Origin: Opitutales bacterium
Lineage (GTDB): Bacteria > Verrucomicrobiota > Verrucomicrobiia > Opitutales > JAFGAQ01
Assembly (NCBI GenBank): GCA_016933595.1
Contig: JAFGAQ010000042.1
Coordinates: 9,715 to 73,714, forward strand
Direction: 5' to 3'
DNA: 64,000 nucleotides
This document shows, in pieces, positions 8,901 to 43,566 of this stretch (its first letter is position 1; each line of letters begins with the position of its first letter). The notes beneath the pieces are model-generated. The model saw only the letters and a program-made list of their open reading frames with translations. It ran no database searches and was not told the DNA's origin. The translations under genes were made by a program, and so were the position numbers.

Positions 8901-8919
8901 ATGGCAATCGGGCGGGTGG

Positions 8920-12135: not shown

Positions 12136-13117
12136 AGGAAAATTCACGCGATCGGTGATTGATGACGGGATTCGGGAATATGCTTCCCGCATGAACCGTG
12201 TCATGGATTATGTCGAGCGTCACCTCGATCAGGAAATGTGTCTCGATGAACTCGCGGGAATTGCCCATTTTTCGGCATTCCATTTTCACCGCCTGTTTCG
12301 AGCCTATACGGGTGAGACCCTCGGAAGGTTCATATCCCGACTGCGGCTGCAAAAGGCTGCCGGCCAGTTGCTCCACAATCCGGAGAAGAGTGTTACCCAC
12401 ATTGCATTGGATTGTGGATTTGGGAGTTCAGCCGCTTTTGCAAGAGCGTTCAGGGATTGCTTCGGGATGTCGGCATCCGAGTGGAGACGATCGCCAAATC
12501 CCATTCAGAGCAATTTGGATCAAAGGTTGAGCAACATGCGTGAAGCAGCTTCGGAAAGCATCTGCTACAGTGGGGTTATCCAATCCATCCCGGTTTGGAC
12601 AATAAACATGAAAAATACCATGAATCAGAAAACACTGACTGTCGAAGTAAAGGACCTTCCCGAACGTCATCTCGCGTATGTTCGCCATATCGGGCCCTAT
12701 GTTGGAGATGAGGCTCTGTTCAAAAACCTTTTCGAGCGGATTTGCCGTTGGGCGGGTGCGCGCTCGCTGATAAACGAAAAAAGCGGGTTTTTCGCGGTTT
12801 ACCACGATGATCCCGAGATCACCGATGAGGAGAAGCTCAGGGTCTCTGTGGGGATAACCGTGCCTGCGGGAACCCGCGGGGATGAAAAGGTTTCGGTGAT
12901 GCGCCTTGAGGGAGGCCGCTATGCGGTTGCTCACTGCCGAATCGCGGAATCAAGTGATTTCTGGCCGGCATGGAGAGCATTGTATGGAGAATGGTTACCG
13001 CAAAGCGGTTTTCAGCCGGATGACCGCCTGTGCTTCGAGCAATACCTGAATGACCCGAAAGAGGATCCGGATGGTATCATGATCGTCGATATGTGTGTGC
13101 CGGTGAAGCCTCTGTGA
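12125..13117 (+). CDS. AraC-family transcriptional regulator with C-terminal GyrI-like effector-binding domain
   Basis: AraC HTH region '[40 protein letters not shown]...[29 protein letters not shown]'. The C-terminal half ('YVRHIGPY...[18 protein letters not shown]...CVPV') is GyrI/SOUL-like. I chose the ATG at 12125. Confidence 0.85.
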
Positions 13118-29424: not shown

Positions 29425-32400
29425 ATGATCAAAACTACTATAACGAAAAGCAGAAGGGCTTGGCTTATGGCCCCCCTTCTCATGTGCGTAGGCGCATCCG
29501 TAAACTCGCAGGATATGGTCGAGAATGAGGAAGATGTCTACATACTGAATCCGTTCGTGGTGGAATCCTCCGGAAACGTAGGATACCTTGCCACGAGCAC
29601 ACTGGCTGGAACGCGTCTGAATACCCAATTGAAAGACGTTGGCTCCGCCATTTCGGTTGTCACGAAGGAGTTCATGCAGGACACCGGAGCGACAAACAAC
29701 GAAACGTTGCTTGTTTACACCATGAACACGGAAGTGGGCGGTGTTGGAGGTAACTTCACCAACGTGAGCAATGGCGCATCCTCATATGAAGGGATGACAA
29801 CCTTCCTCACGCCTCATTCCAGCACACGTGTCCGCGGTCTTTCCGCTGCGGATAACACCCGGGACTATTTCGTGACTGAAATTCCATGGGATGGATTCAA
29901 TGTCGATCGCGTCGACTTGCAGCGTGGGCCGAACTCGATCCTTTTCGGTTTGGGTTCTCCTGCGGGTATCATCAACACCGACCTGAAGGATGCCGATTTC
30001 GGCAAGAACTTCGGTGAGGTGGAAGCCCGTTATGGTCGCTTCGGATCCTACCGTGGGGCGCTCGATGTCAACCGCATCATCATGGACAACGAGTTGGCGG
30101 TTCGTGCAGCTGTGCTCTATGCCGATACCAAGTATCAGCAGAAGCCAGCCTACGCGGAAGACGAACGTTATTATGCCGCTGTTAAGTATGAGCCTTCCTT
30201 CCTGAAGAAAGGTTCGGCCCGTACTACTTTGCGCATGAACGCGGAAGTCGGTGATCTCACCAGTAACCGTCCTCGTACGGTCACTCCGGCTGACATGATC
30301 ACGCCTTGGTTTGGCGCGATGAACAAGCTCACGATTGATCCGTATGACAATCAGGATACGGAATCGGAACGTCCCAACTCCGCTTGGGAGTTCGAGCAGT
30401 ACGCGAGCGGTAATGCCAATCCAAACTATAGCCCGTATATTGGTAACTTCGGACAACTCTTTGGTGGGGTTTTGGCTTACTTCGAGCAGCCGGACTCTTC
30501 GAACATGGCCCGCTATTACGGAGAACCGGAACACGTGAACGGACACACTCCGCATGGTAACCGTGTCGGTGGTGTCGCACCCGCGCTTTTGCGTTCGGTC
30601 GCGGACTATTCTGTTATCGCGAGCAACTTGAATCTGCCGTTCTCTGAGGCTGGCGGTTACAAGACGAAGTATCTCTCCGATCCTTCAATCTTCGACTTCT
30701 ATCATAAGCTGCTGGATGGTCCGAACAAGAAGGAGTATCAGGAATGGGATTCCTTCAACGTCAACCTCTCCCAAGGGTTCTTTAATGAGAAGGTTGGTTT
30801 GGAGTTCGTCTATGACGATCAGAACTATTCCAACATCTTCTTGGGTCTGTTGAACAACGAACGCCAGAATATCTACATCGACATCAATCATAACATGCCC
30901 GATGGCAGCCCGAATCCAAACGTGGGACGTCCGTTTGTTACGGACTCTGGTCGTTATGGAAATGGTCAGCAATACAGTCAGCGCGAGAGCACCCGTTTCT
31001 CGGGATTTGTTGATCTCGACATCGGCGACATCACCCAGAAGGAAAACCTCCTGACCAAGATCATTGGACGCCATGTGTTCAGTGGAGTGTATGCCAATCA
31101 GGGTCGCAGCGTCTATCGCGAGGAGTTCCAGCGTTATGCTACGGATGGCGCATTCGGAGACTTGATTGGAATGCACGGTATTGATGATAACCGTCGCCAG
31201 ATCAACACCGTCCATTACTTGGGCGATTCGATGATGAGTGCAACTTCCGCATCGGGTGCGCATCTCCCACGGTTGTCAAAGGTTCAGAAGCCCGAAGACG
31301 GTTCGATCTATATCTTCGATACGCATTGGAATGCAAGCGGTGTCGATTATGAAGCACCTTGGGTGAATCCCCGCACGGGCGTTGAAATGACCGAGGCAGA
31401 CAATCCGGCCAACTATGTGGGATGGGTGAATGTGCCCTTCAACGTGTTGGATACCACTGATCCGGACGAACATGTTCCCACGATCACTCAAGCCAACCGC
31501 ATCAAAGACGAAGTTGAATCAACTGTCTTCGTTTGGCAGGGTTACCTGTGGGATGGCGCGATTGTTGGTACATACGGATGGCGCGAAGACACCGCCCGCA
31601 ATTGGAGCATGACCGCACCGCTGTATGATGACCGTACCGTCAACATGACGGATTTCAAAATCCGTGGTAAGGAAGGATCGGAGCAGAGCGAAGAAACGAC
31701 CAGCTACAGCATTGTTGCCCACATCAATGATCTCGTTGGTGACCGCCTCCCGGTTAACTTCAGCGTGTTCTACAACAAGGGTGAAAACTTCCAGCCAGCT
31801 GCTGGTCGTGTTGACATTCTTGGAAGAGGACTGCCGGCTCCTTCCGGTGAGACTGAGGACTATGGTTTCATGATCTCGACCAAGGACAACCGTTACGCTG
31901 CACGCGTGAACTGGTATGAAACGACGGTCGCAAACGACGCTAACAATAGCTTCAATGCATGGCCTGCCGGTATCGTGGAAAACTGGGCGCACGCGTTTGC
32001 AACCCGTTTCCGTGACAATGTTGGTAATGATCCTGACTTCACTCCGAAGGATGGGATGAGTGCTGAAGCAACGGCTGCCCTCGAAGCGGCGGCTCTTGAA
32101 GCTTGGTTCGCAAACCCGCCGGAAGAAATTATTCTGGCCTGGGGTGGCAACATCAGCACTGAATCGCTCCATACCACCAATCAGACCACGAATCCTCCCA
32201 ACGGATTCACCATCACGGCTGACACCATGTCAAAAGGGATGGAAGTCGAGCTGATGGCAAACCCGACCGATAGTCTGCGTATCTCGATGAACATCTCCCG
32301 GACGGAAGCCTCCTACAGCAATGTGGGTGGGACCTTCGGAGAATACATCGAAGAACGTTTGGCCTATTATCGCTCGACTGCTGCCGGTGAGATGCGTATC

Positions 32401-32883
32401 TGGGGAGCCGCTGGCCCAACGATTCTCGAACAGTGGGCTGACCAGGGCGGTTTCCTCGGAAACTACCAACGCTTGAAGCTGCAGGATGGCGCAGCCACTC
32501 CGGAACTTCGCGAATGGCGTTTTAATGCCGTAGCTAATTACACCTTCGTCGATGGAGCGCTCAAGGGCTTGAACATTGGTGGTGGTGTTCGTTGGCAGGA
32601 TGAGATCGCGATCGGTTATCCGATGTATTATGATGACAATGGTGATCCGACCTACGACATCAATAACCCATACATGGGACCGGACGAGTGGAACTTCGAC
32701 ATGTGGGCCGGCTATGAGCGTCCGATCAACGACAAGATCGATTGGCGCATTCAGCTGAATGTCCGCAACGTCGGTGCAACGAATGAAGTGGTTCCAATCT
32801 CGGTGCAGGTTGACGGGTCGCCGGCAGCTGTCCGCGTAGCCCCGAACATGACATGGGAAATCACGAACACCTTCAAGTTCTGA
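29425..32883 (+). CDS. TonB-dependent outer-membrane receptor (large, 1152 aa), paralogue 1
   Basis: Signal peptide 'MIKTTITKSRRAWLMAPLLMCVGASVNS', TonB-box-like 'VYILNPFVVES', plug motifs 'LKDVGSAISVVTKEF' and 'VDRVDLQRGPNSILFGLGSPAGIINT', and a beta-barrel-type C-terminus ending in 'TNTFKF'. Confidence 0.85.
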   Translation: MIKTTITKSRRAWLMAPLLMCVGASVNSQDMVENEEDVYILNPFVVESSGNVGYLATSTLAGTRLNTQLKDVGSAISVVTKEFMQDTGATNNETLLVYTMNTEVGGVGGNFTNVSNGASSYEGMTTFLTPHSSTRVRGLSAADNTRDYFVTEIPWDGFNVDRVDLQRGPNSILFGLGSPAGIINTDLKDADFGKNFGEVEARYGRFGSYRGALDVNRIIMDNELAVRAAVLYADTKYQQKPAYAEDERYYAAVKYEPSFLKKGSARTTLRMNAEVGDLTSNRPRTVTPADMITPWFGAMNKLTIDPYDNQDTESERPNSAWEFEQYASGNANPNYSPYIGNFGQLFGGVLAYFEQPDSSNMARYYGEPEHVNGHTPHGNRVGGVAPALLRSVADYSVIASNLNLPFSEAGGYKTKYLSDPSIFDFYHKLLDGPNKKEYQEWDSFNVNLSQGFFNEKVGLEFVYDDQNYSNIFLGLLNNERQNIYIDINHNMPDGSPNPNVGRPFVTDSGRYGNGQQYSQRESTRFSGFVDLDIGDITQKENLLTKIIGRHVFSGVYANQGRSVYREEFQRYATDGAFGDLIGMHGIDDNRRQINTVHYLGDSMMSATSASGAHLPRLSKVQKPEDGSIYIFDTHWNASGVDYEAPWVNPRTGVEMTEADNPANYVGWVNVPFNVLDTTDPDEHVPTITQANRIKDEVESTVFVWQGYLWDGAIVGTYGWREDTARNWSMTAPLYDDRTVNMTDFKIRGKEGSEQSEETTSYSIVAHINDLVGDRLPVNFSVFYNKGENFQPAAGRVDILGRGLPAPSGETEDYGFMISTKDNRYAARVNWYETTVANDANNSFNAWPAGIVENWAHAFATRFRDNVGNDPDFTPKDGMSAEATAALEAAALEAWFANPPEEIILAWGGNISTESLHTTNQTTNPPNGFTITADTMSKGMEVELMANPTDSLRISMNISRTEASYSNVGGTFGEYIEERLAYYRSTAAGEMRIWGAAGPTILEQWADQGGFLGNYQRLKLQDGAATPELREWRFNAVANYTFVDGALKGLNIGGGVRWQDEIAIGYPMYYDDNGDPTYDINNPYMGPDEWNFDMWAGYERPINDKIDWRIQLNVRNVGATNEVVPISVQVDGSPAAVRVAPNMTWEITNTFKF

Positions 32884-33044: not shown

Positions 33045-36000
33045 ATGATAAAAACTACTATAATAAATAGCAGAAGGGCTTGGCTTGTTGCCCCTCTTCT
33101 CATGTGCGTAGGCGCATCTGTAAACTCGCAGGATATGGTCGAGAATCAGGAAGACGTCTATGTGCTCAATCCGTTCGTGGTGGAATCCTCCGGAAACGTA
33201 GGATACATTGCCACGAGCACGCTGGCCGGAACCCGCTTGAACACGCAATTGAAAGACGTGGGTTCTGCCATCTCGGTTGTCACCAAGGAATTCCTCCAGG
33301 ATACCGGAGCTACGAACAACGAAACGTTGCTGGTCTATACCACGAACACGGAAGTGGCGGGTGTGGATGGTAACTTCACCAATGTATCGAATGGATCGAT
33401 GTCCTATCAGGGTGCCTCGACCTTTCTGACCCCTCACTCGAGTACCCGTGTCCGTGGACTTTCCGCAGCGGACAACACCCGCGACTTCTTCGTCACGGAG
33501 ATTCCATGGGATGGATACAATGTGGACCGAGTGGACCTGCAGCGTGGACCAAACTCGATCCTTTTCGGGTTGGGATCGCCCGCCGGTATCATCAATACCG
33601 ATTTGAAGGACGGTGACTTCACCAAGAGTTTTGGCGAGGTCGAAGCCCGTTACGGCCGTTTCGGATCCTACCGTGGTTCCTTGGACTACAACCATGTGGT
33701 TTTGGAGGACGAACTGGCTGTCCGGATCGCCGGAATGATGGGCGAGACCAAGTATCAGCAGAAACCGGCATTTTCGGAAGAGAACCGTCGTTTTGCTGCG
33801 GTGAAGTATGAGCCCAAGTTCCTCAAAAAGGGATCGGCCCGTACAACGATTCGCGTGAATGCGGAAGTCGGTGAGATTACCAGCAACCGTCCGCGTATGG
33901 TAACCCCTGGTGACAACATCACCCCTTGGTTCACTGACATGAACAAGCTGACCATCGATCCCTATGACAATATGGAAAGGGACTCGAAGCGTCCGAACAC
34001 GGCATGGGAGCACAACACGTTCTCAGACGGGTCCGCAAATCCCGACTTTGAGCCATGGATTGCCAATTGGGGACAGCTGTTCGGTGGGGTTCTGGCAATA
34101 TGGGATGACAATAACTCCTCGCAAATGGCCCGTTTCTTTGCGGAACCGGAACGCGTACGTGCGCATGCTCCACACCGTGATGCAAATGGAAATCTCGTGA
34201 ATGTGGCTGGTGTGGCTCCATCGCAATTCCGTGCGATTGGTGGTTTCTCAGATACCGCGATTCGCCGTGGCTTGCCAAATGCATCGGATGGGGTTTACAA
34301 GAACCAGCACCTTCTGGATCCAACGATCTTTGATTTCTACCATCAGCTTTTGGATGGTGACAACAAGCGTGAGTTTCAGGACTGGGATGCCTTCAGCGTA
34401 AACCTTTCCCAAGGATTCTTTGACGAGAAGGTTGGTTTCGAATTCGTGTATGACGATCAGAATTACTCGAACAGCATCTTGAGGCTGTTGGCAAACGAAC
34501 GTCAGAATATCTACATCGATATCCACCATACGCTTCCCGATGGCAGCCCGAATCCTAATGTGGGCCGTCCGTTTGTAACCGATGCCGGCCGCTACGGAAA
34601 TGGAGCCGATTCCAGCCAGCGCGAGAATGTCCGGTTCTCCGGCTTTGTTGACCTCAACATTGCTGATTTGACCCGGAAGGACAACGTTTTGACCCGGATT
34701 CTGGGACGGCATGTGCTGAGTGGTGTTTACTCCACTCAGGAACGTCGTCAGTACCGTGAAGAGTTCCAGCGCTATGCGACGGATGCGGATTTCGGTAACC
34801 TGATTGGCTTTAGCAGCTACGAAGAAAACGATCGTCAGATTAACACGGTGCATTACCTTGGCGAGTCCTTGATGAATCGTTCGACCGCTTCTGGAGCAAA
34901 TATTCCACGCATCAAGGCCATCCAGCGCCCGCAGAGCGGTTCGGTATATATCTTCGATTCCCATTGGAACGCGACAGGTGTGGACTATAATGCGCCATGG
35001 ACCAATCCTCGCACGGGTCTTTCGACGTTGGGTAACCCCGGTAATCCTACCCGTGACCTTGTCCAGGGCGACAATCCCGCAAACTATGTGGGTTGGACTA
35101 ATGTTCCATTCCGTGTTTTGGATGCAACCAATCCTGATGACCGTCCCTATACCCTCACGAATGCGACACGGATCAAGGATATTGTTGATTCTCAGGTCGC
35201 TGTTTGGCAGGGATACTTCTGGAAGGGTGCGATCGTCGGAACGGTCGGATATCGTGAAGACACCGCCAAGAACTGGTCGATTAATGCTCCGAAGAATGCT
35301 GATCGCACTGTCAACATGGATGACTTCAAGATCAGTGGCCCTGAAGAAGCGAAACAGACTGGCGAAACCACTAGCTACAGTTTGGTTGCCCACATCAATG
35401 ATCTGTTAAACGATCGTTTGCCAGTAAACTTCAGTGTGTTCTACAACAGCTCTGAAAACTTCCAGCCTGCCGCTGGCCGTGTTGACATTCTCAACCGTCC
35501 ATTGCCGGCTCCTTCTGGCGAAACCACTGACTACGGTTTCATGATTTCGACGAAGGACAACCGATATGCTGCGAGGTTGAATTGGTATGAGACCAAGGTG
35601 ATGAATGATAGCAACAGTCAGATTGCCAATATCCATTGGGCGATCGGTATACCGGAGAACTGGGCCCATTCGTTTGCCGTGCGTTATCGTGATGGACTGA
35701 TGGAATGGTCACCCAAGGATGGAATGACCCCGGAAGAGACTGTCGCTGCGCAGGCAGCATCGCTGGAGGCTTGGTTTGCAAATCCGCCCACTGCTATCAT
35801 CGAGGCATGGGGTGGCGATCTCAGTGATGCGTCTCTGCGCGTGAATCATCAGACGACCAATCCTCCATCCGGTATGACCGCTACCGCAGACACCGTTTCG
35901 GAAGGTTTGGAACTCGAGTTGATGGCTAATCCGACCGATAGTCTCCGTATTTCGCTTAATGTTGCTAAGACTGAAGCTCAGCAGGCAAATGTTGGTGGGA

Positions 36001-36545
36001 CCTATGTTGACTATGTTGAAGAACGGCTGGCATACTACCGCAACACTCCTGCCGGGGACATGCGCATCTGGTGGGGTGGAGGTGATTCGATCCTTCAGGA
36101 TTGGACCAACCGTTTTCTCGGTCAGTACGAAATTATGAAGGTTCTGGAAGGGACCGCCCAACCCGAACTCCGTAAGTGGCGTGCAAACCTGGTTGTCAAC
36201 TACTCCTTCCTCGATGGCGCCCTCAAGGGATTGAACATCGGTGGTGGTATGCGTTGGCAGGACAAAGTGGGTATCGGATACCCGATCATCCCGAGACCTG
36301 AAGGTGGAGTCGATTACGACATCAAAAATCCTTACATGGGTGATGCCCGAACAGACTTCGACTTCTGGGCCGGTTATGAACGTCCGCTCAACGACAAGAT
36401 CGATTGGAAGATTCAGATCAATGTTCGCAATGCATTTGCGGAAAACGAACTGATCCCAATCTCGGTTCAGCCTGACGGTTCGACGGCAGCCGCTCGTGTT
36501 GCTCCGAACATGACCTGGGAAATCACGAACACCTTCAAGTTCTGA
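33045..36545 (+). CDS. TonB-dependent outer-membrane receptor (1166 aa), paralogue 2
   Basis: Signal peptide 'MIKTTIINSRRAWLVAPLLMCVGASVNS', 'VYVLNPFVVES', 'VDRVDLQRGPNSILFGLGSPAGIINT', and C-terminal 'TNTFKF'. It is collinear with paralogue 1 over the full length. Confidence 0.85.
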   Translation: MIKTTIINSRRAWLVAPLLMCVGASVNSQDMVENQEDVYVLNPFVVESSGNVGYIATSTLAGTRLNTQLKDVGSAISVVTKEFLQDTGATNNETLLVYTTNTEVAGVDGNFTNVSNGSMSYQGASTFLTPHSSTRVRGLSAADNTRDFFVTEIPWDGYNVDRVDLQRGPNSILFGLGSPAGIINTDLKDGDFTKSFGEVEARYGRFGSYRGSLDYNHVVLEDELAVRIAGMMGETKYQQKPAFSEENRRFAAVKYEPKFLKKGSARTTIRVNAEVGEITSNRPRMVTPGDNITPWFTDMNKLTIDPYDNMERDSKRPNTAWEHNTFSDGSANPDFEPWIANWGQLFGGVLAIWDDNNSSQMARFFAEPERVRAHAPHRDANGNLVNVAGVAPSQFRAIGGFSDTAIRRGLPNASDGVYKNQHLLDPTIFDFYHQLLDGDNKREFQDWDAFSVNLSQGFFDEKVGFEFVYDDQNYSNSILRLLANERQNIYIDIHHTLPDGSPNPNVGRPFVTDAGRYGNGADSSQRENVRFSGFVDLNIADLTRKDNVLTRILGRHVLSGVYSTQERRQYREEFQRYATDADFGNLIGFSSYEENDRQINTVHYLGESLMNRSTASGANIPRIKAIQRPQSGSVYIFDSHWNATGVDYNAPWTNPRTGLSTLGNPGNPTRDLVQGDNPANYVGWTNVPFRVLDATNPDDRPYTLTNATRIKDIVDSQVAVWQGYFWKGAIVGTVGYREDTAKNWSINAPKNADRTVNMDDFKISGPEEAKQTGETTSYSLVAHINDLLNDRLPVNFSVFYNSSENFQPAAGRVDILNRPLPAPSGETTDYGFMISTKDNRYAARLNWYETKVMNDSNSQIANIHWAIGIPENWAHSFAVRYRDGLMEWSPKDGMTPEETVAAQAASLEAWFANPPTAIIEAWGGDLSDASLRVNHQTTNPPSGMTATADTVSEGLELELMANPTDSLRISLNVAKTEAQQANVGGTYVDYVEERLAYYRNTPAGDMRIWWGGGDSILQDWTNRFLGQYEIMKVLEGTAQPELRKWRANLVVNYSFLDGALKGLNIGGGMRWQDKVGIGYPIIPRPEGGVDYDIKNPYMGDARTDFDFWAGYERPLNDKIDWKIQINVRNAFAENELIPISVQPDGSTAAARVAPNMTWEITNTFKF

Positions 36546-36886: not shown

Positions 36887-37726
36887 CTATGGAAGAGATC
36901 CCGAATCGTCATGGAATAGTGAACGGGTGTGAAAGAGGAGGCTCCTGTCCCCTTGTTTTCCGTGTCCCGGAATCACCAAGGTCGCTTCAGGGTACCGCTG
37001 GATGAGCGCATCGATTGCATTGGGCCAGTTATCAATATCTGCATCGAACGTGTTGCCAAGTTTGGTTGAATCAGCGGATTTGACAGCACAGCCACCGAAT
37101 AGAAGCTTTTTTGAATGGAAGTAGACCGTAGTATTGTCTGGCGAGTGACTGGCTCCTGGATACCAGACTTCGATGGTTTCCTCTCCGGATTTCAAAAGAA
37201 GTCCATCTTGAAGCGGAAAAACGTGATTTGGCGGAAGTAGGATGAGATTTGAATAGTAGTCATATAACGGAGAACCCTTTAACCATGGAAGCATGGCGTC
37301 GTGCGAACGTTTAGCATCGGTTTTCAGCAGTTCAACGGTTAGGTCAGACCCATGAACGGGGATTCCGTTCTCGATAAGATACGATACTCCACCCAGGTTA
37401 TCGATGTGGAATCCGGTGACGATCGCCACGATGTTTTCTGGACCGAGGCATTCCTTCACCCATCCAATAATGAGCCCGGTGGCTTCGGGAGTGCAGGGCG
37501 TATCCACCATATAAATATCACCGTTTTCTGACTGGACGACCAACGAGTTGCATGGCCATGGAAAGGAATGGGTCACCAGAAACACGCCGTCGGACAAGCC
37601 GTGGATGATTAGCTCATCCGACAATTGGAGGCGAATGTTTGGATTCGCGGACTTGTCGAAGCCGAATAAAAACACCAGTGGGAATAGGATAAGGCTGAGA
37701 ATAGAAACAATTGAGGTTCGGTTCAT
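36887..37726 (-). CDS. subclass B1-like metallo-beta-lactamase (exported), with Gly at ligand position 116
   Basis: It aligns by eye to BcII-type enzymes: 'AIVTGFHIDNLGG' vs 'VIITHAHADRIGG', 'WYPGASHSPDNTTVYF' (His196), 'LFGGCAVKSADSTKLGN' (Cys221) and 'VIPGHGKQGD' (His263). Signal/anchor 'MNRTSIVSILSLILFPLVFLFGF'. I chose the ATG at 37726. Confidence 0.8.
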   Translation of the reverse strand: MNRTSIVSILSLILFPLVFLFGFDKSANPNIRLQLSDELIIHGLSDGVFLVTHSFPWPCNSLVVQSENGDIYMVDTPCTPEATGLIIGWVKECLGPENIVAIVTGFHIDNLGGVSYLIENGIPVHGSDLTVELLKTDAKRSHDAMLPWLKGSPLYDYYSNLILLPPNHVFPLQDGLLLKSGEETIEVWYPGASHSPDNTTVYFHSKKLLFGGCAVKSADSTKLGNTFDADIDNWPNAIDALIQRYPEATLVIPGHGKQGDRSLLFHTRSLFHDDSGSLP

Positions 37727-38036
37727 GGTGCGATTAAACCTGTGTTCCGGATGAGTTTTCAAGCCCTTTGGTCTGTGCTTTTCTATGACCTTTGACAAAA
37801 GCTATTCATTCCCAGAAGCACCACTAGGGACAGGAATGAAAGAAATCGTATCAGGTGCTTTAGGGCATGCAGGCATTCTGGGCCCAGAAAAGGATGACAC
37901 TGTCAGGTCTCGCAAAAACCTGGATTTAGGAAAGTGGTCGGTATGCCGAATATAGTATGTGGTATTCGAGTTTTCGGTCGTTCGGAGTGTTCGATCCGTT
38001 CTGACAGACCAGACATTCCTCCAAACTCTTGCGTTT

Positions 38037-40838
38037 ATGAAAACTTCGCTGAAGCAGACTTTTGTATCTTTCGGGATTCTCTTTTTGTTGGTCTTGCAGG
38101 GCTGGGCCAGGCCGGTTGATTTGGAACAAGCGCGGGCTCTCGGGCAAAGGTTTCTGTCCCAATATCATCGGCCCGAGCATGCGGTGCAGTCGGACTCGAG
38201 TGACTTGAAGCTTACCTTGGTGTCAGGCGTGAAGGGACTTGACCGCTCCGATTCCGGGCATCCCGAATTGTATTTGTTTCTAGCGGATGGTGGCGGTTTT
38301 GTGATCGTCGCGGGCGACGATGTGGCATGTCCTATTCTGGGATACTCGGGTGATAGTCGCTTGGATCCTGACAATCCCGGTCCTGCTTTTCTATTCTGGA
38401 TTGAGAGTTTGAGCCGGCAGATCCGGCAGGCGATGGATTCCGGTGTTGAGTCTGAACCGGTTACTTTGGCTGAGTGGCAAGCTCTGGCAAATGGGGGTCC
38501 TCTCGAACCGCATGATGCCGATTCGGTTGCTCCCTTGTTGCGCACGAAATGGGGCCAGTTTCCTTATTACAATGAATTGTGCCCTTACGATGAGTCCAGA
38601 GGGGAGCATGCGGTTACCGGGTGCGTTGCAACGGCGATGGCTCAGATCCTGAAGCATTGGGATCATCCCCGGTCAGGGGTTGGTTCCTCCCGTTACCGCC
38701 ACCCCGACTACGGAACCCTTTCTGCCGACTATGGATCGACGGTCTATCAATGGAATCAGATGCCGAATCAATTGGGATCGGGTAGTTCGTCCGCTCAACT
38801 ATCGGCAGTTGCCACGCTCATGTCGCATTGCGGAGTGAGTGTTCAGATGGGCTACGGAGTCGATGGAAGTGGCATCAGTGATATCCGGATGGTTGTGGAT
38901 GCTTTGACCCGGTATTTCGATTATGCCGGCTCAGTTGCTCAGGTCAAAAAGAAGGAGTCCAGTGACTCTCTCTGGAAAGCGGCGCTCCGTAGTGAGCTGT
39001 CCGCTGGAAGGCCGGTCTTCTACGTAGGGTATAGTCCCGATGGTGATGAGGGCCACGCATGGGTGTGTGATGGATATGACCGCAATGGCCTTTTCCATAT
39101 GAACTGGGGTTGGGATGGCAGTGCGGATGGTCATTATGCGCTCACGGCATTGACGGCTGCCGGATCGGATTTCTCTGAAGATCAGCTGGCGATTATCGGA
39201 ATCGTCCCCAACGGGAGTGCTTCCACAGCCGAACTGGAGCTTTCGGAGGCTGTTTCAGTCTCAGCAAATCCAATTGCGGTGGGTGCGCCGTTCTCGGTCC
39301 GGGCAAATGTCAGGAATGCTGGCAATGCCGCATTTTCCGGATGGGTGACGGTGGGGATATTCGATATCTCGAACAACTATGTTGAGCAGGTCGCTCAAGC
39401 CCAACAGATCAATGGATTGGCTCCCGCTGCTTCTGTTGCCGGTGGATTGACGTTCTCGACGAACGGACTGGCTGAACTCAAGGCGGGAAGCTATACTCTG
39501 AAGGTCATGTTCAATCGTGCAGGAACGGAAGACTGGTTTCTTGCCGGAGGAGAGCGGTTTGCCAATGGATTGGCATTGACCGTTCAGTCGGGCGCATCGG
39601 ATCTTGAGTTGTATGCTCCCCTCACGGTGGGTTTGGATTCGGTGTTGGTGCAGAATACTCCGTTTGAGGTTTCCTTTAACGTTTTCAACAATGGCAGCAG
39701 TGCGTTCTCAGGTGATCTTGATGTGGATTTTTATGATTTGGACGGGTCCTGGCGATCGGATGTGGGTGTGATATATCATCGCGATGTGAATTCCCTCGCC
39801 GCTGGTTACCGGTATCAGAATAACATGTCGACTACTGTTTCGGGTGTTGATTTGGACACCGGCGAATACCTGGTTGCCGTGACCCACAAGCAACAGGGAT
39901 CGAGTGATTGGTCACTCACGGGTGCTGGTTCCTATAGCAACCCTGTTCGCGTATGGGTTCAGGCTGGGCCGGACCGGTATGAACCGAATGACGATGATGT
40001 GACGGTTCTACCTGTCTCGTTTTCCGGTAACTCCGCAAGGATCAAGACCGAGCGTGCGAGTATTCACCATGAGGAGGATTGGGACTTCTATGGCATTGAA
40101 TTGCCTGCTGGCTTCGATTATCGGGTCGATGCCAGAGTTCACGATTCATGGCGTGCCGGGGATGGAACGGCGTATACGGCGGATGTCCTTTGGGTCATGG
40201 TGGGCTCCGACGATTACTCCGGTGTGTTTGATGATGTGATGGACGCCCCCCATATTCTGGCGAATGGTGGTGTGGTGGTTTTTGGAGTCGCCGGATGGGG
40301 AGCCAATGTCGGTAGTTATTCGCTGGAGGTGGCGATTAACCGGCTTGCGCGTGGAGCGGGGGCAGGCACCGATGCGAGAGCCTATTCGATTCCACTTTAC
40401 CGTTTCCACCGCAGCGATAACAACAGTCACTTTTTTACCGCCAACATAAACGAAAGGGATTATCTGATCGCGAATACCGCCAATGGCGTTTGGACCTACG
40501 AGGGTCCATCGCACCGTGTGTTGCACACGCAGGTCCAGCATTCAACACCGGTTTACCGCCTCTACAACAGCCGTGCGGGTAGTCATTTTTACTCAGCATC
40601 GCTATCGGAGATCGCTTCAATCCAGCAGACGATGGGATCATGGTTTACGGTTGAAGGGGTCGCTTTCTTTGCGCTTGCGGGGCCGGTGGATGGGGCGCTT
40701 CCGGTGTATCGTTTCTATTCGCCCGGTACGGCGTCTCATTTCTTCACGATCAGCGAGGCGGAGAAACGTCAGATTATCGCTACGATTCCTCCATCTCAAC
40801 TCCGGTATGAGGGAATCGCTTGGTATGCCTTCCCCTGA
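38037..40838 (+). CDS. secreted multidomain cysteine peptidase, family C10 (streptopain/SpeB-like) with propeptide, two CARDB-like repeats, PPC-like domain and three C-terminal DUF5648-type repeats
   Basis: Signal 'MKTSLKQTFVSFGILFLLVLQGWA', propeptide-like 'GGFVIVAGDDVACPILGYS', catalytic Cys 'AVTGCVATAMAQILKHWDHP' and catalytic His 'EGHAWVCDGYD'. Two roughly 115-aa repeats ('VRNAGNAAFSGWVTVGIFD', 'VFNNGSSAFSGDLDVDFYD'). 'RYEPNDDD...' is PPC-like. Three repeats 'YRFHRSDNNSHFFT', 'YRLYNSRAGSHFYS' and 'YRFYSPGTASHFFT'. Confidence 0.85.
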   Translation: MKTSLKQTFVSFGILFLLVLQGWARPVDLEQARALGQRFLSQYHRPEHAVQSDSSDLKLTLVSGVKGLDRSDSGHPELYLFLADGGGFVIVAGDDVACPILGYSGDSRLDPDNPGPAFLFWIESLSRQIRQAMDSGVESEPVTLAEWQALANGGPLEPHDADSVAPLLRTKWGQFPYYNELCPYDESRGEHAVTGCVATAMAQILKHWDHPRSGVGSSRYRHPDYGTLSADYGSTVYQWNQMPNQLGSGSSSAQLSAVATLMSHCGVSVQMGYGVDGSGISDIRMVVDALTRYFDYAGSVAQVKKKESSDSLWKAALRSELSAGRPVFYVGYSPDGDEGHAWVCDGYDRNGLFHMNWGWDGSADGHYALTALTAAGSDFSEDQLAIIGIVPNGSASTAELELSEAVSVSANPIAVGAPFSVRANVRNAGNAAFSGWVTVGIFDISNNYVEQVAQAQQINGLAPAASVAGGLTFSTNGLAELKAGSYTLKVMFNRAGTEDWFLAGGERFANGLALTVQSGASDLELYAPLTVGLDSVLVQNTPFEVSFNVFNNGSSAFSGDLDVDFYDLDGSWRSDVGVIYHRDVNSLAAGYRYQNNMSTTVSGVDLDTGEYLVAVTHKQQGSSDWSLTGAGSYSNPVRVWVQAGPDRYEPNDDDVTVLPVSFSGNSARIKTERASIHHEEDWDFYGIELPAGFDYRVDARVHDSWRAGDGTAYTADVLWVMVGSDDYSGVFDDVMDAPHILANGGVVVFGVAGWGANVGSYSLEVAINRLARGAGAGTDARAYSIPLYRFHRSDNNSHFFTANINERDYLIANTANGVWTYEGPSHRVLHTQVQHSTPVYRLYNSRAGSHFYSASLSEIASIQQTMGSWFTVEGVAFFALAGPVDGALPVYRFYSPGTASHFFTISEAEKRQIIATIPPSQLRYEGIAWYAFP

Positions 40839-40882: not shown

Positions 40883-41191
40883 TTATTCCCATCCCAGGGT
40901 TTCGCGGGCGGAGGGACTGAGCATTTCGGGATGCCATGGCGGATCCCAAACCAGCGCGACCTCGGCACGCGAAATCCCGGGAACCGATTCAGCCGCAGAT
41001 TGGACCCCTTCCAATAAGACCTGCCCGGCCGGACAACTGACCGAGGTCAGGGTCATGGCTATTTGGGCAACCCCATCGTTGACCTTTATTCCGTAGATCA
41101 GCCCGAGATCCATCAGGTTGATTCCGAACTCCGGGTCGTGAACATGGTAGAGTGCTTCCGATACAGCGATCTCAAGGTTTTCAGTTGTCAT
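40883..41191 (-). CDS. DUF59 / MIP18-family protein (Fe-S cluster assembly-associated, SufT/PaaD-like)
   Basis: 'VSEALYHVHDPEFGINLMDLGLIYGIKV...AQIAMTLTSVSCPAGQVLLEGV' is the classical DUF59 pattern with the conserved Cys. Its ATG (41191) overlaps the upstream TGA (ATGA at 41188-41191). Confidence 0.8.
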   Translation of the reverse strand: MTTENLEIAVSEALYHVHDPEFGINLMDLGLIYGIKVNDGVAQIAMTLTSVSCPAGQVLLEGVQSAAESVPGISRAEVALVWDPPWHPEMLSPSARETLGWE

Positions 41192-42516
41192 GGTGTCCGA
41201 GGGTGGATCAGGTGAAGGGCAATCTGGATCGCATTTGCAAAATAGCAAAGGGATCCGACCGCAAAAATGATTGTGCCTACAGTGGCCAGGACTTGGAAGC
41301 TACTGGCGATTGCAAAGATGCATACCATGATGCCGATTGTGTGGAGCAGCATCCATGACCATTCCAACTGACGGGAAGACAGCTCGGTGGCGAGTGGCAC
41401 TTTTTGTTTCCCGATCCGGCCTCCATAGGCTTTCATCCAGACGAGGAAAGGCAGAATTTTGCAGAGCATCCCGAGAATCGCCAGGCTCAATGCGAGCGCG
41501 ACGCCCATTGCAAAATACACGCGGGCGATGATGGGATCGTTCGCCAGATCCGGTTGCGTGCGGACGGCATAGCCTCCAATGATCGCGGTAGCCGCAAGCG
41601 CCAGCATTCCCCAGACGAAGCTTTTGATTCCGGGTTCGAGGCGTCTGCGTTTTCTTGATCCAAGTGTTGCCAGGAAAGCGTGCCCCGAAAACGCAATCGC
41701 GAGAACAAGCAAGAGTCCTCCTGTCAGCAGCAATGGCTTCCAGTTCCACGCCATAGCGGGAATGAGGAGCACCAGTCCGGTTTGGGAAAGCATCAAACCA
41801 GTGCGGATGCTGTCCGGTTTTTGCAATTGTCCCATAGTGAACATCGGAACAAGCTGAAAGGTGGAGCCTTGCAGGAGGGTCAGAAAAAAACCGATGAGAC
41901 CCATATGTGCGTGAACCGAGAGTAGTTGGGTTGCTGGAAGGGGAAACAGGGTCCATTGCCGGTTCAGGGCCAGCAAGGTTCCAAACACCACGGTCGCAAA
42001 TAGCCAGTAACCGGCGAGCAGGAAGGTCCAGGCCACCGCATCCCTGCGATTCGATCGGGAAAATGTGGTCTCACAAGTGATCATGAAGATCATCACCCCC
42101 AGCGACACCAGTATCCCCCCGATCGCGGCCAGCGGATAGTCTCCATGGGCGAATCCCGCCACAAGAGTCAAGCTGCCGATCACGTGAATGGAGAGATGTC
42201 CCCAAAGCCATCCGGAGCGCACTGCGAGATCGGTCCCCAGCACCACCGGCATGAGTTGATAGACTGCTCCGAAGCAGATGCTCAGGAGAAATCCAGGCAA
42301 CCATGCGTGAACCAGCGCAACTACGCGCGGTAGCAGAGCTGGAGAAATCAAGAGGTCGGGCGACGCTGCGACCCAGATCGACGATGCTGTGCCTGCAAGG
42401 AGACCCCAGAAGACGAATCCAATCGGAATCCATCCTCCCCCCGTGAGGGCCACCATTCCGGCTCGTGCTGGTGAAGCTCCACCCTTATTTGGAGATGATG
42501 TTAAGCCAGCTGCCAT
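41188..42516 (-). CDS. 12-TM integral membrane protein with partial heme-copper-oxidase subunit I-like signature (function unknown; NnrS-like is an alternative)
   Basis: I predict about 12 hydrophobic helices by eye. 'VALVHAWLPGFLLSICFGAVYQLMPVVLG' resembles HCO helix II plus loop. 'SVHAHMGLIGFFLTLLQGSTFQLVP' resembles the cbb3/NOR helix VI region '..GHNAVGFFLT......P'. There is no HH pair and no later HxH. The start is ambiguous: TTG 42537, ATG 42516 or ATG 42456. Confidence 0.6.
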   Translation of the reverse strand: MAAGLTSSPNKGGASPARAGMVALTGGGWIPIGFVFWGLLAGTASSIWVAASPDLLISPALLPRVVALVHAWLPGFLLSICFGAVYQLMPVVLGTDLAVRSGWLWGHLSIHVIGSLTLVAGFAHGDYPLAAIGGILVSLGVMIFMITCETTFSRSNRRDAVAWTFLLAGYWLFATVVFGTLLALNRQWTLFPLPATQLLSVHAHMGLIGFFLTLLQGSTFQLVPMFTMGQLQKPDSIRTGLMLSQTGLVLLIPAMAWNWKPLLLTGGLLLVLAIAFSGHAFLATLGSRKRRRLEPGIKSFVWGMLALAATAIIGGYAVRTQPDLANDPIIARVYFAMGVALALSLAILGMLCKILPFLVWMKAYGGRIGKQKVPLATELSSRQLEWSWMLLHTIGIMVCIFAIASSFQVLATVGTIIFAVGSLCYFANAIQIALHLIHPRTP

Positions 42517-43000
42517 CGTGTTGTTCGAAGCTTTCAAATGAAACGCCCCGGGCTAAAAGCTCGTTTTGCAGGTGCATGGGACGGCGGTCAGTCGTGGCGT
42601 GCAACTCGCAATCCGGATGCAGGGTTTCCAATGCCTCGATAATGCGCATCATCGGAACCGGGGGCTCATGTCCTCGCACATCCAGTTCCCGGATTTGCTT
42701 GGGCTGATCATCGTTATCATCGACGCTTTCATCCCCTGAACAGCACGAAAATGCCACTTCTGATGAACTGTTTCCGGTTTTCGTGATCCGGATTTCCACA
42801 TTGTCCGGTCCCTCCTTAAGGTATTCCCATTTGTGGGCTCCCGGATAGAGGCGTTCGAACTGCATCCGCAAGGGGGCCGGATCGAATCCGTTCACCAGCA
42901 CGAAGGATTCACCCTTTTTGAGTTCACTCCACTGTTGGAAAATGGTCGACAGTTTGGATTCGCAGGGAAGCTTGGAAACATCGAGTCGATTGGGATTCAT
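42485..43000 (-). CDS. tandem DUF2249-domain protein
   Basis: Domain 1 is 'LDVSKLPCESKLSTIFQQWSELKKGESFVLVNGFDPAPLRMQFERLYPGAHKWEYLKEGPDNVEIRITK'. Domain 2 is 'ELDVRGHEPPVPMMRIIEALETLHPDCELHATTDRRPMHLQNELLARGVSFESFEQHDGSWLNII' (TusA-like fold pattern without the CP Cys). The acidic linker carries 'FSCCSGDESVDDNDD'. Confidence 0.75.
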   Translation of the reverse strand: MNPNRLDVSKLPCESKLSTIFQQWSELKKGESFVLVNGFDPAPLRMQFERLYPGAHKWEYLKEGPDNVEIRITKTGNSSSEVAFSCCSGDESVDDNDDQPKQIRELDVRGHEPPVPMMRIIEALETLHPDCELHATTDRRPMHLQNELLARGVSFESFEQHDGSWLNIISK

Positions 43001-43018: not shown

Positions 43019-43408
43019 TCAGGACAATTGGATGGTGCCGCTTGGTTTTGAAAGCGGGATGAGTGCCGGCTCGGAGCCCAGGGTCAGTAACATCGTGAAA
43101 GTGCCAAACGATGCTTTTACGGCGTGGAGGTGATCCGGGGGCATGTGAAGGAAGGCTCCGGCCTCGAGTGTGTGCCATGCTTCAGCGAAGTAGAATTCGC
43201 AGGAGCCCTCAACGATTTGGACCAGTGCCCTTCGTCGACTGGTGTGCGGGGTGAGTTCCTGTCCTTCGGCAAAGGTAAACAGCACCACCCGCAGTTCGGG
43301 GCTTTGCAGCAAGGTCCGGCTAACAATACCGGCGGTGGATGCCTGAACCGCTTCGCCTATCATGAGGGATTCGGCTTTTGTTGCGTCTATTAGGGTGTGT
43401 TTGCTCAT
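43019..43408 (-). CDS. cupin-domain protein
   Basis: 'VVLFTFAEGQELTPHTSRRRALVQIVEG' is cupin motif 1 with only one His. 'LEAGAFLHMPPDHLHAVKA' is motif 2. I chose the ATG at 43408 (MSKHTLID...). Confidence 0.7.
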   Translation of the reverse strand: MSKHTLIDATKAESLMIGEAVQASTAGIVSRTLLQSPELRVVLFTFAEGQELTPHTSRRRALVQIVEGSCEFYFAEAWHTLEAGAFLHMPPDHLHAVKASFGTFTMLLTLGSEPALIPLSKPSGTIQLS

Positions 43409-43566
43409 CCCCGCATTATCGCATGCTTCCCAACGCAATGTATTGATCCACATCAAGGAGAAGATGTTTTTTCCAGCTGACCGCCATTTGGGGGGAGGAT
43501 CCCGGATGAATCGTGTTTGAAAATGCACATTGACCGTTTGCGCTTTGTTGAGCTAGGGATTGAGCC

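What the first reader, a model, noticed from the sequence alone, without database searches (positions are those of the whole stretch)
41188..42516. Heme-copper-oxidase subunit I-like membrane protein retaining only part of the metal-ligand set
Residue numbering follows the 449-aa ORF-track translation.

**What resembles HCO subunit I.**
- 'VALV-H77-AWLPGFLLSICFGAVYQLMPVVLG' resembles HCO helix II. That helix carries the low-spin heme His and is followed by the 'FGN(W/Y)L(V/I)PLMIG'-type loop.
- 'SV-H209-A-H211-MGLIGFFLTLLQGSTFQLVP' resembles the cbb3/NOR helix VI CuB-His region, '..YGHNAVGFFLT......(I/V)P'.

**What is missing.**
- I see no adjacent HH pair (helix VII CuB ligands).
- I see no HxH in the later helices (helix X heme ligands).
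- The only later His residues are H286, H399, H442 and H445.

**Interpretation.** This would be a 12-TM HCO-fold protein that cannot build the canonical binuclear centre, so it is either a degenerate or a repurposed member. The 'HAHM' motif is also reminiscent of the NnrS 'HAHEM' signature, so an NnrS-like assignment remains open. The reference motifs are quoted from memory.
Basis: partly seen in the sequence, partly recalled or inferred. Interest (0 to 1): 0.6.

Follow-up and report, generated by a model that had tools for sequence, protein, structure and literature searches.

The report
Haem-copper-oxidase-like membrane protein, denitrification-linked
This gene encodes a 12-helix membrane protein with the fold of respiratory oxidase subunit I but without its catalytic metal centre; it belongs to a widespread, untested family that always travels with two small cytoplasmic partner proteins and is switched on by a low-oxygen/nitric-oxide type promoter.

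Summary
ORF 41188-42516(-) encodes a 12-TM protein with a confident AlphaFold model. All 50 best PDB fold matches are oxidase or NO-reductase subunit I. Helices VII and X carry no His, so the canonical haem-copper centre cannot form.

It is not degenerate and not NnrS. The family has about 2,500 clusters at 50% identity across bacteria and archaea. No Pfam or NCBIfam model matches this protein, and NnrS gives no profile match. The family profile hits cbb3 CcoN (E 7e-11) and NorB (E 1e-4).

The protein is a near-perfect internal triplication. H77 and H209 are invariant. H211 and Y341 are gained and lost together. By register, the ligand pattern is the canonical one rotated by one four-helix unit.

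The gene sits in an operon: cupin, DUF2249, this gene, DUF59. The operon lies behind a textbook class II FNR-type promoter. DUF59 follows in 80/83 related loci and is fused in some homologues. Relatives lie in nar, nir/nor and nosZ clusters.

Best reading: a haem-binding accessory protein of the "HCO-homology" group (Pei et al. 2014, computational only), acting in denitrification or NO stress. Haem binding and function are inferred, not shown.

The parts
43443..43456 (.). FNR/CRP-family box TTGATGTGGATCAA (as read on the minus strand). It is centred 41.5 nt upstream of the cupin ATG.
   Evidence: It is the only TTGAT-N4-ATCAA in the 64 kb window (0.11 expected). A box with <=1 mismatch lies within 250 nt upstream of the cassette in 44 of 72 evaluable related loci. 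About 20 of these sit 41.5-43.5 nt from the start codon.
43415..43420 (-). -10-like hexamer GATAAT. It lies at -12..-7 if the transcript starts at the A of the cupin ATG (43408).
   Evidence: Read directly from the sequence. The spacing to the FNR box equals class II FNR promoter geometry. This rests on established knowledge and is an inference. The simple sigma-70 scan found no -35/-10 pair, as expected for an activator-dependent promoter.
43019..43408 (-). Cupin-fold protein, first gene of the operon. The likely start is M41 of the 169-aa ORF.
   Evidence: Pfam Cupin_2/AraC_binding matches. Homologues are called at 119-122 aa. It lies upstream of the cassette in 37/83 loci.
42485..43000 (-). 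Tandem DUF2249 protein (TusA-like second half), with no signal peptide.
   Evidence: Pfam PF10006, E 1.5e-35, two stretches. It lies upstream of the membrane gene in 72/83 loci. It overlaps the next gene by 32 nt.
41188..42516 (-). 12-TM HCO-subunit-I-fold membrane protein (442 aa), the subject of the finding. Key residues in 449-aa numbering: H77 and H209 (invariant), H211 with Y341 (co-varying), H114/H118/H442 (cytoplasmic side, clade-specific), and Q94/Q228/K360.
40883..41191 (-). DUF59 / FeS_assembly_P protein (SufT/MIP18-type). Its ATG overlaps the membrane gene's TGA as ATGA.
   Evidence: Pfam PF01883, E 8.5e-17. The ATGA overlap was read. It lies downstream in 80/83 loci. It is fused to the C-terminus of family members P0176, P0213, P0219 and P0267. 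Solved structures exist only for uncharacterised homologues.

Best explanation
**What it is.** The gene encodes a non-catalytic member of the haem-copper oxidase superfamily, of the 'HCO-homology' type. It keeps the 12-helix, three-unit scaffold but has relocated its ligands.

**Proposed cofactor sites (all inferred).**
- H77 (helix II) and H209 (helix VI) lie at equal depth in the outer half of the membrane. They are predicted to face each other across the unit-1/unit-2 interface and bind one low-spin b-type haem. Canonical oxidases leave this pore empty.
- In this protein and about three quarters of the family, H211 (equivalent to the CuB His) and Y341 (in place of the high-spin-haem His) form a second site in the canonical catalytic pore.
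- The helix VII HH pair is absent, so the protein cannot reduce O2 or NO in the known way.

**Proposed role.**
- It is the membrane core of a conserved module with cytoplasmic DUF2249 and DUF59 proteins, plus a cupin here.
- The module is transcribed from an FNR/DNR-type promoter under low oxygen or NO.
- The most likely role is accessory to denitrification or nitrosative stress. It would supply electrons or an NO/redox signal from the membrane haem(s) to partners that maintain Fe-S or other metal centres.

**Shown versus inferred.**
- Shown: the fold, the ligand inventory, the internal repeat, the co-variation, the gene linkage and fusion, and the promoter motif.
- Inferred: haem binding, which residues face each other, and the physiological role.
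For: **Fold and homology**
- AF2 pLDDT 89.3; 12 helices.
- The top 50 Foldseek PDB hits are all HCO/NOR subunit I, TM 0.58-0.73.
- The family profile hits cbb3 CcoN at E 7e-11 to 1e-6 and P. aeruginosa NorB at 1e-4.
- hhalign against Rhizobium NorB gives Prob 90%.
- Distant members reach Pfam COX1, two of them above the gathering score.

**Ligands**
- Only H77, G90 and H209 are invariant in 135-137 sequences.
- The three 4-TM units align with one another at Prob 98.4-98.8%. The equivalences are L75=H209=Y341 and H77=H211=A343.
- The offsets to the conserved Pro match the canonical first- and second-position His residues of CyoB and cbb3.
- The interface rule taken from canonical enzymes predicts exactly two pairs: the invariant H77+H209 and the co-varying H211+Y341.
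- Co-variation counts: HY 100, H only 7, Y only 1, neither 29. About 11 coincident changes occur on a UPGMA tree.

**Partners**
- DUF59 is present in 80/83 loci and DUF2249 in 72/83.
- Natural DUF59 fusions exist. The two genes overlap as ATGA.

**Regulation and context**
- An FNR box sits at -41.5 and is conserved in related loci.
- Family members lie in three kinds of cluster:
  - Thermus nar-drpAB;
  - Rhizobium nor-hemN-...-nnrS-nirK;
  - Haloferax nor/nirK-like.
- They also lie beside clade II nosZ/SCO1 in Opitutaceae.
- DUF2249 genes are NO-regulon members and affect nitrate reductase activity in Thermus (PMC1274295, PMC6282519). They are induced in haloarchaeal denitrification (PMC11218638).
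Against: - No cofactor has been measured for any family member.
- Because the three units are homologous, sequence alignments to HCOs come out collinear or rotated either way. The register argument is therefore indirect.
- In this window the operon sits among housekeeping genes with no denitrification gene nearby. Only 17/83 verrucomicrobial loci are near nosZ.
- DUF59 and DUF2249 have no defined biochemical activity.
- The co-variation statistic is only roughly corrected for phylogeny.
Confidence: 0.55

Rival explanations
1. It is a membrane signal transducer. The haem protein senses NO, redox state or a periplasmic nitrogen oxide. It passes the signal to DUF2249 proteins (DrpA/DrpB-like), which modulate DNR/FNR-type regulators.
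For: - In Thermus JL-18 the homologue lies on the same strand just downstream of drpA-drpB.
- That homologue carries the same TGACCCAGGTCA palindrome as the drp promoter.
- The Drp paper reports nitrate-dependent regulation. It explicitly lacks a membrane component to carry the signal, and DrpB is partly membrane-associated (PMC6282519).
Against: - The tightest and most universal partner is DUF59, including fusions, and DUF59 is not a known signalling domain.
- No kinase, HTH or other output domain is linked.
- The module also occurs in genomes and loci without denitrification regulators nearby.
Confidence: 0.15
2. It is a cofactor-free scaffold, transporter or assembly factor. The HCO scaffold would be reused as a channel or chaperone, for example for iron, copper, haem or a small N-oxide, serving denitrification metalloenzymes. 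The conserved His residues would bind a transported metal rather than haem.
For: - It lies next to SCO1/CusF and nosZ in 15-17 of 83 loci.
- It lies next to hemN in Rhizobium.
- The three units carry symmetric polar residues Q94/Q228/K360.
- A cytoplasmic His cluster, H114/H118/H442, is present in 44/137 sequences.
- DUF59 relatives act in metal-cluster assembly (established knowledge).
Against: - The invariant pair sits exactly at the positions that ligate haems in canonical enzymes, and at the same membrane depth.
- No transporter-like features or ATPase partners are present.
- The link to copper genes is limited to Opitutaceae.
Confidence: 0.2
3. It is a genuinely catalytic enzyme of a new type. 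It would reduce or convert NO, or another N- or O-species, at an unconventional site built from a His/Tyr-ligated haem plus K360.
For: - H211 and Y341 occupy the canonical catalytic pore and are co-conserved.
- K360 is 95% conserved.
- The context is rich in NO-producing and NO-consuming enzymes.
Against: - There is no second metal site: the helix VII His pair is absent and no conserved Glu cluster was seen.
- The Rhizobium, Thermus and Haloferax members lack H211 and Y341 yet keep the module.
- No electron-donor subunit (NorC, CcoO or subunit II) is linked.
Confidence: 0.07
4. It is a divergent NnrS-family protein.
For: - HAHM resembles the NnrS HAHEM signature, which was verified in Rhizobium NnrS (YWHAHEMLFGF).
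- Both are 12-TM proteins linked to NO responses.
Against: - No PF05940 hit for the query or for 10 distant relatives, while COX1 does hit those relatives.
- hhalign against a 61-sequence NnrS alignment gives Prob 1.5%.
- The motif sits on helix VI here and on helix II in NnrS.
- Both genes coexist side by side in Rhizobium.
Confidence: 0.03

Closest known systems
HCO Homology (HCOH) proteins, three-unit class (Pei, Li, Kinch & Grishin 2014, Protein Sci 23:1220). The paper is not held in the library, so its content is cited from my own recollection of the abstract and from PMC11218638.
   Same: - 12 TM helices made of three homologous four-helix units.
- Two conserved His residues, taken to bind a single haem.
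- Genomic association with denitrification and NO-detoxification genes and with DUF2249.
- No experimental characterisation.
   Different: - I could not check which HCOH family, if any, this one corresponds to.
  - the H211/Y341 co-varying pair;
  - the cytoplasmic H114/H118/H442 cluster;
  - the near-universal DUF59 partner and its fusions;
  - the FNR-type promoter.
cbb3-type oxidase subunit CcoN and NO reductase NorB (C-family HCO / NOR; PDB 3mk7, 9g6b, 3o0r)
   Same: - Same 12-TM fold (TM-score 0.62-0.68).
- Significant profile similarity (E 7e-11 to 1e-4).
- Shared helix motif H-x12-G-x2-[YF]-x3-P.
- An HxH pair on one helix.
   Different: - No His pair on helix VII and no His on helix X.
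- The HxH sits on helix VI instead of helix X.
- The helix II His is shifted by two residues.
- No CcoO/NorC-type partner. Instead the partners are cytoplasmic DUF59 and DUF2249.
- Much stronger internal three-fold sequence symmetry.
NnrS (PF05940), a haem- and copper-containing membrane protein of NO regulons
   Same: - 12-TM protein.
- An HAH(E)M-like motif.
- NO/denitrification regulon context, and adjacency in Rhizobium.
   Different: - No detectable profile similarity.
- The motif is on a different helix.
- The conserved partners differ.
DrpA/DrpB system of Thermus thermophilus (DUF2249 proteins; PMC6282519)
   Same: - The same domain family as the gene immediately upstream.
- The Thermus homologue of this membrane protein lies four genes downstream of drpA.
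   Different: - The published work does not mention the membrane protein or DUF59.
- DrpB has an extra DUF1858 domain.

Membership tests
Haem-copper oxidase / NOR catalytic subunit (Pfam COX1 PF00115) | 12-TM subunit I fold with three pseudo-symmetric four-helix arcs | tested here: met
   The AF2 model has 12 helices. The top 50 Foldseek PDB hits are all subunit I of aa3, bo3, ba3, cbb3 or NOR enzymes.
Haem-copper oxidase / NOR catalytic subunit (Pfam COX1 PF00115) | Significant match to the family profile | tested here: inconclusive
   The query has no Pfam hit at E<=1. The family profile hits cbb3 and NorB chains at E 7e-11 to 1e-4. Distant members hit PF00115, two of them above the gathering score, but only over profile positions 306-411. 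This shows superfamily homology, not family membership.
Haem-copper oxidase / NOR catalytic subunit (Pfam COX1 PF00115) | Six canonical His ligands: helix II (1), helix VI (1), helix VII (HH) and helix X (HxH) | tested here: not met
   Helices VII (241-263) and X (335-374) contain no His in the query. No conserved His occurs there in 137 relatives.
Haem-copper oxidase / NOR catalytic subunit (Pfam COX1 PF00115) | Linked electron-entry subunit (subunit II, CcoO or NorC) or quinol site | tested here: not met
   The operon partners are a cupin, DUF2249 and DUF59. No such subunit is consistently present in 83 loci.
NnrS (PF05940) | Match to the NnrS profile | tested here: not met
   No hit for the query or for 10 relatives at E<=1. 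hhalign against an NnrS alignment gives Prob 1.5%.
NnrS (PF05940) | HAHEM signature on the second TM helix | tested here: not met
   The query has HAHM on helix VI (H209-H211). Helix II has a single His. Rhizobium NnrS has YWHAHEM at residues 63-69.
HCOH three-unit proteins (Pei et al. 2014) | Three homologous four-TM evolutionary units | tested here: met
   Unit-versus-unit hhalign gives Prob 98.4-98.8%, E 1e-15 to 1e-16.
HCOH three-unit proteins (Pei et al. 2014) | Two conserved His residues (a putative single haem) in place of the six-His set | tested here: met
   H77 and H209 are invariant in 137 sequences. No other His is universal.
HCOH three-unit proteins (Pei et al. 2014) | Genomic association with denitrification/NO genes and DUF2249 | tested here: met
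   The DUF2249-HCO link is attributed to Pei et al. in PMC11218638.
HCOH three-unit proteins (Pei et al. 2014) | Identity with one of the families listed in that paper | not testable with these tools
   The paper is not held. No family accessions were available.
HCOH three-unit proteins (Pei et al. 2014) | Actual haem binding | not testable with these tools
   This needs protein chemistry, or at least model coordinates, which the tools do not return.

The most novel reading that the evidence does not exclude
The family is a functional two-haem redox protein whose cofactor layout is the canonical oxidase layout rotated by one four-helix unit.
- A bis-His haem (H77/H209) sits in the pore that is empty in all known oxidases.
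- A His/Tyr-ligated haem (H211/Y341) sits in the old catalytic pore.
- The two are bridged by the helix VI H-A-H turn, just as helix X bridges haems a and a3.
- Docked to DUF59 on the cytoplasmic face (H114/H118/H442), it would form a previously unrecognised membrane-to-cytoplasm electron or NO relay. That relay would repair or mature Fe-S and other metal centres during denitrification.
- It would also be a living near-symmetric intermediate in oxidase evolution.
Probability: 0.2. Interest if true: 0.75.

Novelty: new member of a known kind. Interest (0 to 1): 0.5.

Why it matters
- **Scale.** The family is large: about 2,500 clusters at 50% identity. It spans Verrucomicrobiota, Deinococcota, Alphaproteobacteria and haloarchaea.
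- **Annotation gap.** No Pfam or NCBIfam model matches this protein, and no member has been studied experimentally.
- **Location.** It sits inside or beside nitrate, nitrite, NO and N2O reductase clusters.
- **Possible roles.** It could be the missing membrane partner of the DUF2249 (Drp) proteins. It could also link a DUF59 Fe-S assembly-type protein to the membrane.
- **If the rotated haem arrangement is real.** It would show how the oxidase scaffold can host cofactors at any of its three symmetric interfaces. That bears on the origin of oxidases and NO reductases.
- **Practical use.** The conserved FNR box and the invariant His pair give direct handles for genetics in Thermus or Rhizobium.

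Tried and rejected
**Searches that gave nothing**
- Pfam and NCBIfam on the query: no hit.
- phmmer of the query, and an HMM of 40 close homologues, against PDB sequences: no HCO hit. Only the 135-sequence profile worked.
- hhalign against single-sequence E. coli CyoB: Prob <5%.

**Literature**
- Reading Pei et al. 2014 by PMC id and by DOI: not held.
- The text search for 'HCOH' returned chemistry papers only.
- The search for Rhizobium papers naming the gene found nothing usable.

- The Pfam scan of the whole alignment exceeded the residue limit.
- Model coordinates are not exposed in /data, so no His-His distances could be measured.

**Ideas rejected**
- H114/H118 as the symmetric image of the CuB His pair. 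They lie near the cytoplasmic start of helix III, while the CuB pair lies at the outer end of helix VII. The topology comes from the positive loops at 161-167 and 293-302.
- NnrS membership.
- A copper-delivery role specific to NosZ. nosZ is nearby in only 17/83 loci and is absent from this window.
- PDB search with the DUF2249 protein gave only a spurious de novo protein hit.
Full report
**1. The observation**

- The minus-strand ORF 41188..42537 encodes 449 aa from a TTG codon.
- Homologues start at the internal ATG at 42516 (M8, 442 aa).
- Both quoted motifs and the His inventory are correct.
- The AlphaFold2 model built on 40 homologues is confident (pLDDT 89.3, pTM 0.88). It has 12 long helices: 36-58, 70-100, 108-130, 134-161, 167-195, 202-233, 241-263, 267-293, 302-327, 335-374, 389-412 and 415-443.
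- Strongly basic loops at 161-167 and 293-302 place the N-terminus and the even-numbered loops in the cytoplasm.
- H77, H209 and H211 therefore lie in the outer half of the membrane. H114, H118 and H442 lie on the cytoplasmic side. This is inferred from the positive-inside rule.

**2. Relationship to haem-copper oxidases**

- Foldseek against the PDB returns only subunit I of aa3, bo3, ba3 and cbb3 oxidases and of NO reductases among the top 50. TM-scores are 0.58-0.73, sequence identity is 9-14%, and E is about 1e-6 to 7e-4.
- The query itself matches nothing in Pfam or NCBIfam or among PDB sequences.
- I built a broad profile from 135 sequences with 23% mean column identity. It uses representatives found by an exhaustive HMM search that returned 2,530 clusters at E<=1e-3.
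- That profile hits cbb3 CcoN at E 7e-11 to 1e-6 and P. aeruginosa NorB at 1e-4.
- hhalign against a Rhizobium NorB sequence gives Prob 90% over all 12 helices.
- Several distant members reach Pfam COX1, two of them above the gathering score.
- Superfamily homology is therefore real.
- NnrS is not detectably related. There are no PF05940 hits. Prob is 1.5% against a 61-sequence NnrS alignment. NnrS is a separate neighbouring gene in Rhizobium.

**3. The ligand set**

*Conservation across 137 diverse members*

| Residue | Conservation |
|---|---|
| H77, H209 | 100% |
| Q94 | 96% |
| K360 | 95% |
| H211 | 78% |
| Y341 | 74% |
| H442 | 64% |
| H114, H118 | about 40% |
| H399 | 23% |

Helices VII and X never carry a conserved His. 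A canonical binuclear centre is excluded.

*Internal triplication*

- The protein is a strikingly regular internal triplication. Units 30-165, 166-299 and 300-449 align with one another at Prob 98.4-98.8% (E 1e-15 to 1e-16).
- The equivalences are:

| Unit 1 | Unit 2 | Unit 3 |
|---|---|---|
| L75 | H209 | Y341 |
| H77 | H211 | A343 |
| Q94 | Q228 | K360 |
| P97 | P231 | P363 |
| H118 | Q252 | H399 |

*Register relative to canonical enzymes*

- I call the two His-bearing positions 'first' (Pro at +22) and 'second' (Pro at +20).
- In E. coli CyoB, read from L003, H106 on helix II is a first-position His, with P128 at +22.
- On CyoB helix X, H419 is first and H421 is second, with P441.
- In cbb3, from the alignments printed, H60 aligns with H209. 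H207 and H347 align with H77.
- The canonical pattern is therefore helix II first, helix VI second, helix X both.
- This family has helix II second, helix VI both, helix X Tyr at first. That is the canonical pattern rotated by one unit, with Tyr replacing one His.

*The interface rule*

- In the known structures each cofactor site is built from the second-position residue of one unit and the first-position residue of the next. CuB-His with haem a3-His is one case. Helix X His with helix II His for the low-spin haem is the other. This is established knowledge of HCO structure.
- Applied here, the rule predicts three interfaces:
  - H77+H209, which is the invariant pair;
  - H211+Y341;
  - an empty third interface, A343+L75.
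- The second predicted pair is gained and lost together. Counts are HY 100, H only 7, Y only 1, neither 29, with Fisher p 5e-22. About 11 coincident changes occur on a UPGMA tree.
- I take this as indirect support for the geometry.
- H114, H118 and H442 co-occur in 44/137 sequences. They mark a clade-specific site on the cytoplasmic face.

**4. Operon and regulation**

- The gene is third in a four-gene minus-strand operon:
  - cupin (43019-43408);
  - tandem DUF2249 (42485-43000);
  - the membrane protein (41188-42516), which overlaps DUF2249 by 32 nt;
  - DUF59/FeS_assembly_P (40883-41191), joined by an ATGA overlap.
- The only TTGAT-N4-ATCAA box in the 64 kb window lies at 43443-43456 (0.11 expected).
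- Its centre is 41.5 nt upstream of the cupin ATG. A GATAAT hexamer lies 29.5 nt downstream of the box centre.
- That is the geometry of a class II FNR-type promoter. It predicts a leaderless transcript (inference).
- Flanking genes are housekeeping: gcvT, tilS, ftsH, a radical-SAM methylthiotransferase and a C10 peptidase.

**5. Related loci**

- The closest genome is an Opitutales MAG at 94% identity.
- Counts across 82 verrucomicrobial loci plus the window:

| Neighbour | Loci |
|---|---|
| DUF59 downstream | 80/83 (the misses are at contig ends) |
| DUF2249 upstream | 72/83 |
| Cupin | 37/83 |
| Clade II nosZ within 6 kb | 17/83 |
| SCO1/CusF | 15/83 |

- An FNR box with <=1 mismatch precedes the cassette in 44 of 72 evaluable loci, and 22 are perfect. 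The background is about 0.05 per equivalent stretch. About 20 boxes lie 41.5-43.5 nt from the start codon.
- Members outside the phylum:
  - On Thermus thermophilus denitrification plasmids the order is nar operon, drpA, drpB, hypothetical gene, protoglobin, member, DUF59. The same TGACCCAGGTCA palindrome sits before drpA and before the member.
  - On Rhizobium plasmids the order is norCBQD, hemN, DUF2249, member, DUF2249, DUF59, nnrS, nirK, nnrR, nnrU.
  - On Haloferax plasmids the member lies next to a multicopper-oxidase gene (likely nirK) and near a long, qNor-like subunit I gene. It is preceded by an 11/12 match to the haloarchaeal denitrification motif (motif from PMC11218638).
- Four homologues are natural fusions with a C-terminal DUF59 domain. 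This argues for a direct interaction on the cytoplasmic side.

**6. Literature**

- DUF2249 (COG4309) genes were predicted members of the NnrR/NsrR NO regulons and are co-transcribed with nor (PMC1274295).
- DrpA and DrpB of Thermus affect nitrate-dependent regulation and the activity of nitrate reductase (PMC6282519).
- Haloarchaeal DUF2249 genes are induced during denitrification. That paper cites Pei et al. 2014 for a DUF2249-HCO association (PMC11218638).
- Pei et al. 2014 described 'HCO Homology' proteins, including 12-TM forms with two conserved His and a presumed single haem.
- I could not read that paper, so the attribution rests on my recollection of the abstract and on the citing paper.
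- No experimental work on this membrane family was found.

**7. Interpretation**

- Most likely this is a non-catalytic, haem-binding HCO-superfamily protein.
- It forms the membrane core of an FNR/DNR-controlled DUF2249, membrane protein and DUF59 module that supports denitrification or nitrosative-stress tolerance.
- Proposed mechanism, inferred throughout: one bis-His haem b at the helix II/VI interface and, in this protein, a second His/Tyr site in the old catalytic pore. These would relay electrons or an NO/redox signal to the cytoplasmic partners, which act on Fe-S or other metal centres.
- Rivals are a signal transducer for the Drp-type regulators, a cofactor-free scaffold or transporter, an unconventional catalytic enzyme, and NnrS membership. 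The last is rejected.

**8. Verdict**

Its core inference, an HCO fold without the canonical centre, is also right.
- The NnrS option and the 'degenerate' reading are not supported.
- The protein is a member of an already recognised but experimentally untouched group.
- New points from this analysis:
  - the rotated ligand register;
  - the H211/Y341 coupling;
  - the near-obligate DUF59 partner, including fusions;
  - the conserved FNR-type promoter.
- Interest is moderate. The protein is not categorically new, but it is a large, unannotated, testable family at the heart of the nitrogen-oxide cycle.

Noticed in passing
window 29425-32883 and 33045-36545 (+): Two adjacent, very large (1152 and 1166 aa) TonB-dependent-receptor-like ORFs. 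Their Plug-domain coordinates are identical (69-182), so they look like tandem paralogues.
   Followed up: no
window 37959-40838 (+): A 959-aa secreted-looking protein. It combines a Spi inhibitor propeptide, a peptidase C10 (streptopain-like) domain, CARDB and a C-terminal DUF5648. It converges on the operon's DUF59 gene with only about 44 nt between the stop codons.
   Followed up: no
window 54174-58790 (+): A 1538-aa hybrid histidine kinase. It has an N-terminal phosphonate-binding-type periplasmic domain, multiple PAS domains, HisKA/HATPase, a receiver domain and an Hpt domain.
   Followed up: no
window 1-64000: GC skew is positive in every 2-kb bin across the whole window. The cumulative skew rises monotonically to 3.68, so no replication origin or terminus lies inside the window.
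   Followed up: no
L004 (T. thermophilus JL-18 pTTJL1801) 6571-6586 and 8912-8929: The same TGACCCAGGTCA palindrome occurs upstream of drpA and upstream of the HCO-like gene. A protoglobin-domain gene and a 144-aa hypothetical gene lie between drpB and the HCO-like gene. This suggests one DnrT-controlled unit that is larger than the published drpAB operon.
   Followed up: partly
P0148 (862 aa): A family representative of twice the normal length, with two matched stretches and no Pfam hit. It may be a tandem duplication or a fusion of two family members.
   Followed up: no
L001 2018-2031 and 2073-2086; L014 2033-2046 and 2088-2101: Paired perfect FNR boxes lie in the divergent region between the cupredoxin/nosZ genes and the SCO1-CusF gene in Opitutaceae loci. 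The nos genes and the cassette therefore probably share a regulator.
   Followed up: partly
L002 (Opitutaceae TAV5) 12514-12768: A second, single-domain DUF2249 gene lies about 5 kb downstream of the cassette, next to a GST-like gene.
   Followed up: no
window 36887-37798 (-): A metallo-beta-lactamase-fold protein (303 aa) with an N-terminal hydrophobic segment lies two genes downstream of the operon, beyond the convergent C10 peptidase gene. It was not seen as a conserved neighbour.
   Followed up: no
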